Below are positions 11,366-12,212 of a stretch of DNA of 64,000 nucleotides, one piece after another. The notes below the pieces were generated by a model, which was not told the DNA's origin, searched no databases, and was given only the letters and a program-made list of their open reading frames with translations. The DNA is taken from assembly GCA_964016885.1 (NCBI GenBank), contig OZ024745.1:42718001-42782000 (forward strand), written 5' to 3'. A program made the translations under genes and the position numbers. Source of the stretch: Eledone cirrhosa. Lineage: Eukaryota. Every line of letters begins with the position of its first letter. Positions within the stretch are counted from its first letter, which is position 1.

Positions 11366-11701
11366 TTTGGTATTGTGGGGTTGGATTTTGCCTACCGCAA
11401 TTTTAAATTTGTCAAGCTATTTAAACGTATTGTTATTACTCTAAGGACCTACCCTTATTGAGTGCTTTGCTACTCATTCCTTGTTGTAGGTCGACTTTGC
11501 GCTTGACCACAGCTAAAGCTTCGATTTTACTAAGCTTCCACTTATATATGCATGTATGTATACATAAATGTAATCTGAGTTTTTCGAATATTAATAATGA
11601 CATTCGATTCGTTTGCAATTATGCAAACAAGCCTCAATTTTATAGCCATGTCAGTAGAATGAACCCTTCATTCTTGCTCTTGTGTTGGCATATGAACAGC
11701 A

Positions 11702-11745
11702 CTGCAGACACTAATGTTTCTGGGTATCACCTTTCATCAGTACAG
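11702..11745 (-). ncRNA. Minimal type I hammerhead ribozyme (family 2)
   Basis: Minus strand reads ctgta-CTGATGA-aa-ggt-gat-acc-ca-GAAA-cat-ta-gt-GTC-tgcag. Stem I is ctgta/tgcag. Confidence 0.8.
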
Positions 11746-11779
11746 CTCACTGTTCACCTGCCCAACTGTCAGAGCTAGT

Positions 11780-11900
11780 GAAAATATATGCTATTTTCAA
11801 AAATACAGTGACTGATCGACCTGATTTGCATATTAGCAGACTGGCTGATTAGTCAGATCTGCATATTAGTAGATCCACTGACCAGCCAGATTTGCATATC
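11780..11900 (-). promoter_or_regulatory. Three octamer-like repeats (ATTTGCAT at 11824 and about 11890, variant ATCTGCAT at about 11857) plus TATA-like aaatatat at about 11782
   Basis: Motifs are visible at similar spacing from the hammerhead as in family 1. Function is inferred. Confidence 0.4.
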
Positions 11901-12212
11901 AGCAGACTGGCCAGTCAGTTTCTTGTATACAAGCAATAAATGGCCGGCTTTGACAAATTCAAATAAAAAGGAAATTTTCGCTCTACATGGCTGAATACAA
12001 TAAATGTAATCTGAGATTTTTAATATTAATAATAATGTTTGATTCGTTTGCAATTATGCAAACAAGCCTCAATTTTATAGCCATGTTTGCATAATTTTAT
12101 AGCTTGTTTGCATAATTGCATACGAATCGAATGTTATTATTAATATTCGAAAAACTCAGATTACATTTGTTGTATTCATCCATGTAGAGCGAAATTTTCT
12201 TTTTATGTATAC

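What the first reader, a model, noticed from the sequence alone, without database searches (positions are those of the whole stretch)
11545..12204. A second hammerhead family with the same tandem-then-inverted layout
Seen: a 436-bp period, a partial second copy, then an inversion running into (TA)n, with an intact-core hammerhead at 11702-11745 (minus, GUC triplet). The sequence is mostly unlike family 1, but a short stretch upstream of the ribozyme is similar (gcccaactgtcagagctag versus acccatctgccagatag). Inference: a superfamily with a shared integration mechanism.
Basis: partly seen in the sequence, partly recalled or inferred. Interest (0 to 1): 0.7.

Follow-up and report, generated by a model that had tools for sequence, protein, structure and literature searches.

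The report
Penelope-type hammerhead retrozyme, second family
This is one of thousands of copies of a 438-base non-coding repeat that carries a predicted self-cutting RNA motif and sits in TA runs, often as two back-to-back arms; its ends match the published footprint of Penelope-like jumping genes, which likely copied it, so it is a new member of a known kind.

Summary
In detail: a 436-bp period, a partial copy, an inverted arm and a type I hammerhead. The family is abundant (4,434 exact hits of a 23-mer). Of 76 position-ordered loci, 46 have two head-to-head arms, but only 10 show tandem plus inversion. Inner joins vary. Outer ends fall at two fixed sites about 35 nt apart, mostly in (TA)n, with one of each kind in 39 of 42 classifiable loci. 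That is the published Penelope-like element (PLE) layout of partial tandem, inverted truncated copy and tail, so the 'shared integration mechanism' is known. Families 1 and 2 are collinear homologues over about 240 nt, much more than the short stretch reported. The ribozyme has A·A at the base of stem II family-wide, and this copy has one further mismatch. Arm ends pile up before the predicted cut (41 of 101 against 10 of 60), which hints at cleavage. No autonomous partner was found and no RNA run was listed. The scan has already noted this layout for other repeats in this genome. Verdict: a new non-autonomous PLE-type retrozyme family of modest interest.

The parts
11556..11565 (.). Candidate target-site duplication, left copy (10-bp palindrome inside a TA-like tract)
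   Evidence: The same 10 letters stand at 12205-12214. Weak: it is a palindrome in an AT tract, and TSDs are not readable at most other loci.
11564..12086 (-). Long arm, RNA sense on the minus strand: one full unit plus 87 nt of the upstream unit; its 3' end is the fixed short end (unit position about 141-143 after the cut)
   Evidence: 96% identical to the family consensus
11564..11650 (-). Predicted 3' RNA domain (outer stem plus three hairpins) that holds the short end; homologous in family 1 with compensatory changes; likely the signal that the reverse transcriptase recognises
   Evidence: Folds and ends; function inferred
11702..11745 (-). Type I hammerhead: stem I CUGUA/UGCAG, core CUGAUGA and GAAA, stem II with A·A at its base (plus a private A·C here), self-complementary stem III region, GUC triplet, predicted cut 11707/11706
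   Evidence: cleavage untested
11781..11791 (-). TATA-like box, aligned with the one in family 1
   Evidence: promoter role inferred
11811..11911 (-). Three 33-nt repeats with octamer motifs (ATTTGCAT at 11824 and 11890 on +, a variant at 11857); family 1 has one octamer at the aligned place
   Evidence: promoter role inferred
11963..11999 (-). Internal copy of the ~35-nt tail segment
12087..12101 (.). Central join: 15-nt filler made of pieces of both arms (21-nt local duplication, 12071-12117)
12102..12204 (+). Short inverted arm, RNA sense on the plus strand, unit positions about 75-177, ending at the fixed tail end
12205..12552 (.). (TA)n target tract; its first 10 letters repeat 11556-11565

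Best explanation
This is a multicopy, non-coding, hammerhead-bearing repeat whose copies end at two fixed sites mostly in (TA)n, and it is likely a non-autonomous Penelope-type retrotransposon (non-LTR retrozyme) copied in trans by a PLE reverse transcriptase-endonuclease. Shown in the DNA: copy number, two head-to-head arms, two fixed 3' ends about 35 nt apart with one kind on each arm, variable inner joins with short overlaps or fillers, TA targets, and homology to family 1. Inferred steps: (1) an internal octamer/TATA-like promoter in a tandem source copy makes RNA; (2) the hammerhead cuts part of it, probably as a dimer; (3) a PLE enzyme binds the 3' RNA domain, nicks both strands of a TA tract and primes one cDNA at the short site and the other at the tail site; (4) each cDNA stops early, often at or just before the cut 5' end, while about half read past the cut site, which needs uncut tandem RNA or a circle; (5) the two truncated cDNAs are joined head to head by microhomology end joining. 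The window copy is an older copy (96% to consensus) with a further damaged stem II and is probably inactive.
For: Abundance: 4,434 exact 23-mer hits, 0 for the reversed control; 1,932 hits of the hammerhead pattern. Layout: 46 of 76 loci two-armed; of 42 with both ends classifiable, 39 are short+tail, 2 short+short, 1 tail+tail. Target: 94 of 122 outer ends have (TA)4 within 30 nt, against 10-13% background. Joins: 28 of 46 overlap by 2 nt or more, 13 have filler, 5 are near blunt (BLAST overlaps overstate microhomology). Arms of one locus share 21% of variant sites against 6.8% in permutations, 0 of 2,000 reaching it (59 loci). Arm ends: 41 of 101 stop in the 60 nt before the cut, 10 of 60 in the 60 nt after it (p=0.0016). 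Structure: 15 of 17 recurrent variants are unpaired or keep the predicted pair (p=0.004 with a transition-weighted null); circular fold -167 against -104+-7 kcal/mol in 40 shuffles, and still -104 against -66+-4 without the repeat block. No open frame over 110 codons in a doubled unit of L009. Enzymes are available: RT plus GIY-YIG PLEs are abundant, and two families checked show the same two-end footprint. Literature: PMC8557442, PMC3846280 (passages), PMC11167929 (parts 1-2 of 4), 10.64898/2026.07.22.740005 (parts 1-3 of 5).
Against: No autonomous partner: none of six PLE 3' regions aligns with family 2 above shuffles (best p=0.047 uncorrected, on a part). The ribozyme is non-canonical: A·A at 10.1/11.1, no Rfam match, and the active monomer fold is about 6 kcal/mol above a fold that hides the core. 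In the preprint, 8 of 9 frog retrozyme dimers did not cleave; in vitro the anole PLE used uncut RNA and showed no strand difference in start site. The pile-up before the cut could be stalling at the hairpin. The single-base genome-wide test gave raw counts of 74 (cut site), 48 (+6) and 62 (-6); only after inspecting 30 and 20 loci do these become about 59, at most 48, and about 26, which is a step, not a spike. No A-to-G excess once recurrent sites are removed (p=0.58). Shared arm variants could come from subfamily age or gene conversion.
Confidence: 0.87

Rival explanations
1. Same PLE enzyme, but the template is mainly a circular monomer RNA that the enzyme runs round (a variant of step 4, not exclusive of the best explanation).
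For: 60 of 113 arms pass the cut site. The unit folds as a closed, highly paired circle. 6 of 30 inspected 'ends at the cut' were internal changes at or next to the cut site, possibly ligation scars. Circles are shown for coral and mussel retrozymes (PMC7229834, passages).
Against: Arms rarely exceed 1.4 units and only 2 of 113 pass a second cut site by more than 5 nt. The pile-up before the cut fits linear ends. An uncut tandem transcript explains read-through equally well.
Confidence: 0.35
2. LINE-driven SINE-like element with twin-priming inversions.
For: 5' truncation, inversion and microhomology joins are also LINE features (recalled). LINE-type RT frames lie in the window.
Against: The inverted arm repeats the 3' end instead of continuing upstream sequence. 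There are two fixed 3' ends with a one-sided tail and no A-rich or repeat tail.
Confidence: 0.04
3. Foldback or MITE-type DNA transposon, or a satellite, with the hammerhead as a passenger.
For: Inverted termini in TA context.
Against: Arm lengths vary from about 36 to 800 nt, 30 of 76 loci have no central head-to-head join, and the two ends differ by the tail. Variants spare the RNA fold.
Confidence: 0.03
4. Assembly artefact next to a (TA)n run.
For: No long reads were laid on this locus.
Against: The three copies differ from each other by 5-13%, each locus has its own join, and Logan contigs hold opposite-strand joints of the family.
Confidence: 0.01

Closest known systems
Metazoan non-LTR retrozymes (PMC7229834, passages; preprint 10.64898/2026.07.22.740005, parts 1-3 of 5)
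   Same: Non-coding unit of 150-450 bp, low GC, type I hammerhead, tandem tendency, highly paired predicted circle, coexists with PLEs
   Different: Mostly dispersed truncated one- and two-armed inserts, seldom two hammerheads in tandem; A·A at the base of stem II; circles and cleavage untested; no pLTR homologue found here, unlike 24 of 57 Xenopus families that match known elements
EN+ Penelope-like elements (PMC8557442, PMC3846280, passages; PMC11167929, parts 1-2 of 4)
   Same: Partial tandem, inverted 5'-truncated copy, 30-40-bp tail at one end, two internal start sites, AT/(TA)n targets, hammerhead near the 3' end
   Different: No ORF. Short and tail ends are paired almost strictly one per arm (39 of 42), whereas the in vitro anole study saw no strand difference in start site
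Minimal dimer-type PLE hammerheads (PMC4209133, parts 1-2 of 4) and the U10.1·U11.1 variant (PMC3088659, passages)
   Same: Self-complementary stem III region able to pair as a dimer (10 bp, -8.8 kcal/mol); a mismatch at the base of stem II
   Different: A·A instead of G-C or U·U; longer stem I (up to 8 bp) and a longer stem III region
Newt satellite 2
   Same: Hammerhead repeat with an internal snRNA-type promoter (one passage in PMC2220036)
   Different: That its promoter holds an octamer is recalled; the primary paper was not held. Promoter activity here is untested

Membership tests
PLE-type insertion | Partial tandem with 5' truncation | tested here: met
   17 of 76 loci have an arm longer than one unit; 5' ends are variable
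PLE-type insertion | Inverted 5'-truncated copy adjacent, head to head | tested here: met
   46 of 76 loci
PLE-type insertion | 30-40-bp tail at one end (two fixed 3' ends) | tested here: met
   Ends at about 141-143 and 175-178; 39 of 42 loci have one of each
PLE-type insertion | AT/(TA)n target bias | tested here: met
   94 of 122 ends against 10-13% background
PLE-type insertion | Target-site duplication | tested here: inconclusive
   One 10-bp palindromic candidate at this locus; unreadable in TA tracts elsewhere
Autonomous PLE | RT plus GIY-YIG ORF | tested here: not met
   Longest open frame 110 codons in a doubled unit
Non-autonomous PLE derivative | Homology to the pLTR of an autonomous PLE | tested here: inconclusive
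   Six PLE 3' regions tested, none matched; the genome holds many unsampled PLE families
Non-LTR retrozyme | Type I hammerhead in each unit | tested here: met
   Motif with stems I-III; changes between families 1 and 2 keep stems I and II; A·A in 97 of the 100 listed hits
Non-LTR retrozyme | Two consecutive complete hammerheads (the preprint's 'active' criterion) | tested here: not met
   The window locus has one. Tandem pairs exist elsewhere (L014; three same-strand pairs 430-444 nt apart among the 100 listed hits)
Non-LTR retrozyme | Self-cleavage | not testable with these tools
   Only an indirect hint from arm ends
Non-LTR retrozyme | Circular RNA expressed | not testable with these tools
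   No RNA holder listed
Rfam hammerhead families | Covariance-model match | tested here: not met
   No hammerhead match at E<=10 on 11600-11960

The most novel reading that the evidence does not exclude
A dimeric PLE enzyme assigns its two start sites by strand on one RNA (short site on one nick, tail site on the other), reading a compact 3' RNA domain conserved between sister retrozyme families, and the template's 5' end is made in vivo by a hammerhead with an A·A pair at the base of stem II, a working variant not found in the papers read here.
Probability: 0.3. Interest if true: 0.6.

Novelty: new member of a known kind. Interest (0 to 1): 0.36.

Why it matters
Both PMC8557442 and PMC11167929 say that how PLEs form tandem and inverted insertions with a one-sided tail is still to be shown experimentally. 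This family is a short, protein-free substrate with thousands of insertions. It gives a near-strict short/tail pairing rule, a bounded RNA domain shared by two sister families, and a ribozyme variant that can be assayed directly. As a kind it is known, and the scan has noted several such families in this genome.

Tried and rejected
Fixed inversion point: both window loci invert near the same motif, but joins vary across loci, so this was rejected. Partner search: family 2 lies beside Neptune-like PLEs at L041/L073 and L070, but at L073 tail to tail across a TA run, so this was read as shared targets; Hydra-like and Poseidon-like 3' ends gave no match. RNA-editing scars: an A-to-G excess in the 29 best copies (p=0.0006) vanished in the unbiased set and after removing recurrent sites. 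A 5'-end cluster at unit 336-368 looked like a start site, but several of those ends join TA targets through the unit's own ATATAT. The family 1 DNA search returned nothing because common words are skipped, so family 1 was not surveyed genome-wide. One search had one letter too many and was replaced. One search included a non-homologous stretch, so its covariation counts were discarded. No RNA holder listed; run X4 held one contig of 238 nt. ARAGORN found no tRNA in the SINE locus. The scan index had no look-alike for this sequence. Searches for cephalopod+retrozyme and octopus+Penelope+hammerhead listed no paper on such a family; subscription papers and Repbase were not searchable, and no supplements were read.

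Full report
Observation. The window holds a unit with 435-436-nt period from 11564, a partial second copy to 12086, a 15-nt filler, an inverted arm at 12102-12204 and then (TA)n. The minus strand carries a type I hammerhead motif at 11745-11702 with a predicted cut after GUC at 11707/11706. Rfam does not detect it. In RNA sense the locus is two arms joined at their 5' ends with both 3' ends facing outwards. The same 10 letters flank both ends (11556-11565, 12205-12214), a weak candidate target duplication.

Copy number and sampling. The genome has 3.0 Gb; earlier scan notes call it cephalopod, which I did not verify. A DNA search found 2,176 candidates and scored 40, all 93-95% identical over nearly the full query apart from the window itself. 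An exact 23-mer near the 3' end has 4,434 hits and the hammerhead pattern 1,932. For an unselected sample I took the first 100 listed places (contig C1, 0-60 Mb). They fall into 77 loci after merging overlaps; one duplicate locus was dropped, leaving 76. All carry the exact 23-mer, so decayed copies are under-represented. Mean divergence from the 438-nt consensus is 5.4% in this set and 2.5% in the best copies.

Layout. 46 of 76 loci have two head-to-head arms, 17 have an arm longer than one unit, and 10 have both. Numbering from the predicted cut, outer ends fall at about 141-143 (short) or 175-178 (tail). Of 46 two-armed loci, 39 have one short and one tail end, 2 two short, 1 two tails, and 4 could not be classed; the 29 best-copy loci give 15 of 15 classifiable. 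Half would be mixed if ends were independent. 94 of 122 outer ends have a TA run within 30 nt. Inner joins are at variable places, with overlaps of 2 nt or more in 28 of 46 and fillers in 13. The window's filler is built from pieces of both arms, as in end joining with templated insertions (recalled). The two arms of a locus share variants more often than arms of different loci (21% against 6.8%), which fits one template or one source, though conversion or shared age could contribute.

Comparison with family 1. The two units align collinearly from the octamer through the TATA-like box and hammerhead to about 100 nt past the cut (score 111.5, shuffles 61.6+-8.7; upstream part 0 of 500 shuffles, downstream p=0.004). 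Their 3' regions fold alike, as an outer stem with three hairpins. Read by eye from those folds, the outer stem has C-G against U-A and U-A against A-U, and the inner stem G-C against C-G. Both families stop their short arm at TTACATTT|AT or a close variant and carry a tail beyond it, about 35 nt in family 2 and about 60 nt in family 1. They are sister families.

Ribozyme. The consensus has up to 8 bp of stem I, stem II GGGU/ACCC with a variable loop, and A·A where G10.1-C11.1 is usual; 97 of the 100 listed hits keep A·A. Family 1, another repeat (L005) and one Neptune-like PLE have U·U there, a variant reported active elsewhere (PMC3088659, passages). The stem III region pairs with itself over 10 bp, which suits a dimer, while the monomer prefers a fold that hides the core by about 6 kcal/mol. 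The window copy adds an A·C mismatch found in 3 of 33 family-2 motifs listed. 15 of 17 recurrent variants spare the predicted pairs; the fold was computed from the consensus, so this leans towards agreement. Of 113 arms, the stop rate rises to 0.12 per 10 nt around the cut and falls to 0.03 beyond it (41 of 101 against 10 of 60, p=0.0016). Genome-wide pattern counts were 74, 48 and 62 for ends at the cut, 6 nt after and 6 nt before. 16 of 20 inspected hits of the commonest 'before' form were internal variants, mostly a 3-nt loop deletion, and 6 of 30 inspected 'at cut' hits were internal too, giving about 59 against 26. This is a step, consistent with a cut RNA end but also with stalling. No editing signature remained.

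Enzyme. The genome has many RT plus GIY-YIG elements (10,596 first-look candidates for PF01541, 150 scored). I label them Neptune-, Poseidon- and Hydra-like from motifs only, with no tree. The latter two, 30 loci each, end at two fixed sites in (TA)n, with tails of about 43 and 88 nt. None of six 3' regions matches family 2. The partner is not identified.

What is known. PMC8557442 (passages) describes partial tandems, an inverted 5'-truncated copy, a 30-40-bp tail often at one end only, and (TA)n bias. PMC3846280 (passages) shows the same, with 8-10-bp TSDs and mobilisation in trans by pLTRs. PMC11167929 (parts 1-2 of 4) shows both-strand cleavage and extension and two internal start sites bounding the tail, with no strand difference and no need for ribozyme cleavage in vitro. 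PMC4209133 (parts 1-2 of 4) describes dimer-type hammerheads in PLEs. PMC7229834 (passages) and the preprint 10.64898/2026.07.22.740005 (parts 1-3 of 5) define animal retrozymes and propose PLE mobilisation. No supplements were read; those of the preprint and PMC8557442 may list related families. The scan's own notes describe the two-armed layout for other repeats in this genome; these are unchecked AI notes and I had reached this reading before seeing them.

Verdict. The feature is real and works like a non-autonomous PLE. It meets the insertion features, lacks an ORF, and has untested cleavage and expression. What adds some interest is the near-strict short/tail pairing, the shared 3' RNA domain and the A·A ribozyme. 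New member of a known kind; interest 0.36.

Noticed in passing
Unit position 108/109 (window about 11598); e.g. L094, L016, L002, L153: A ~190-nt SINE-like element (A/B-box-like head; tRNA origin recalled, ARAGORN negative) has inserted at the same base in 16 of 76 loci, in the same orientation, with variable 5' ends, duplications of 0-18 nt and several subfamilies. The site is the loop of a 10-bp palindromic hairpin; elsewhere the SINE's 3' end is followed by ATTAT in nearly all cases. It looks like a strong insertion hot spot.
   Followed up: partly
window 652-1728, 4140-5070, 28420-29090: Family 1 (466-nt unit, U·U hammerhead at 993, 1447, 4863, 28816): one tail end and one short end at 652-1728; an array of at least four units in L071.
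   Followed up: partly
window 5200-5260 (minus) and 28301 (plus): A third hammerhead-like family with G10.1-C11.1, a long stem II and 10-bp stem I; the 5244 copy is interrupted by a piece of family 1.
   Followed up: no
L165-L194 and L245-L274: Two very abundant young PLE families (65,341 and 26,371 first-look candidates; top hits 95-100% identical in protein), with open frames up to 726 and 905 codons. In the Hydra-like family the ORF-linked copies read CAGAAGA at the hammerhead core.
   Followed up: partly
L225-L244: A recurrent 3-nt deletion in the stem III loop on several subfamily backgrounds, giving a shorter hammerhead.
   Followed up: partly
L222, L207, L213, L215, L216, L218, L220: Changes concentrated at the predicted cut site, and one repeated 16-nt restart from position 1; possible ligation or end-of-template scars.
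   Followed up: no
Run X1 contig laid on window 11690-12137: A joint whose filler holds telomere-like (TTAGGG)n letters.
   Followed up: no
window 29591-31698, 16124-16579, 60118-61583: Broken LINE-type RT frames and a DNA-transposase-like frame, judged by eye; also satellites of 39 nt (40938-41972), 108 nt (42450-42865) and 42 nt (25895-26512).
   Followed up: no
window 11371-11545: The left flank is another dispersed repeat, also at 238-437, directly before family 1's TA run.
   Followed up: no
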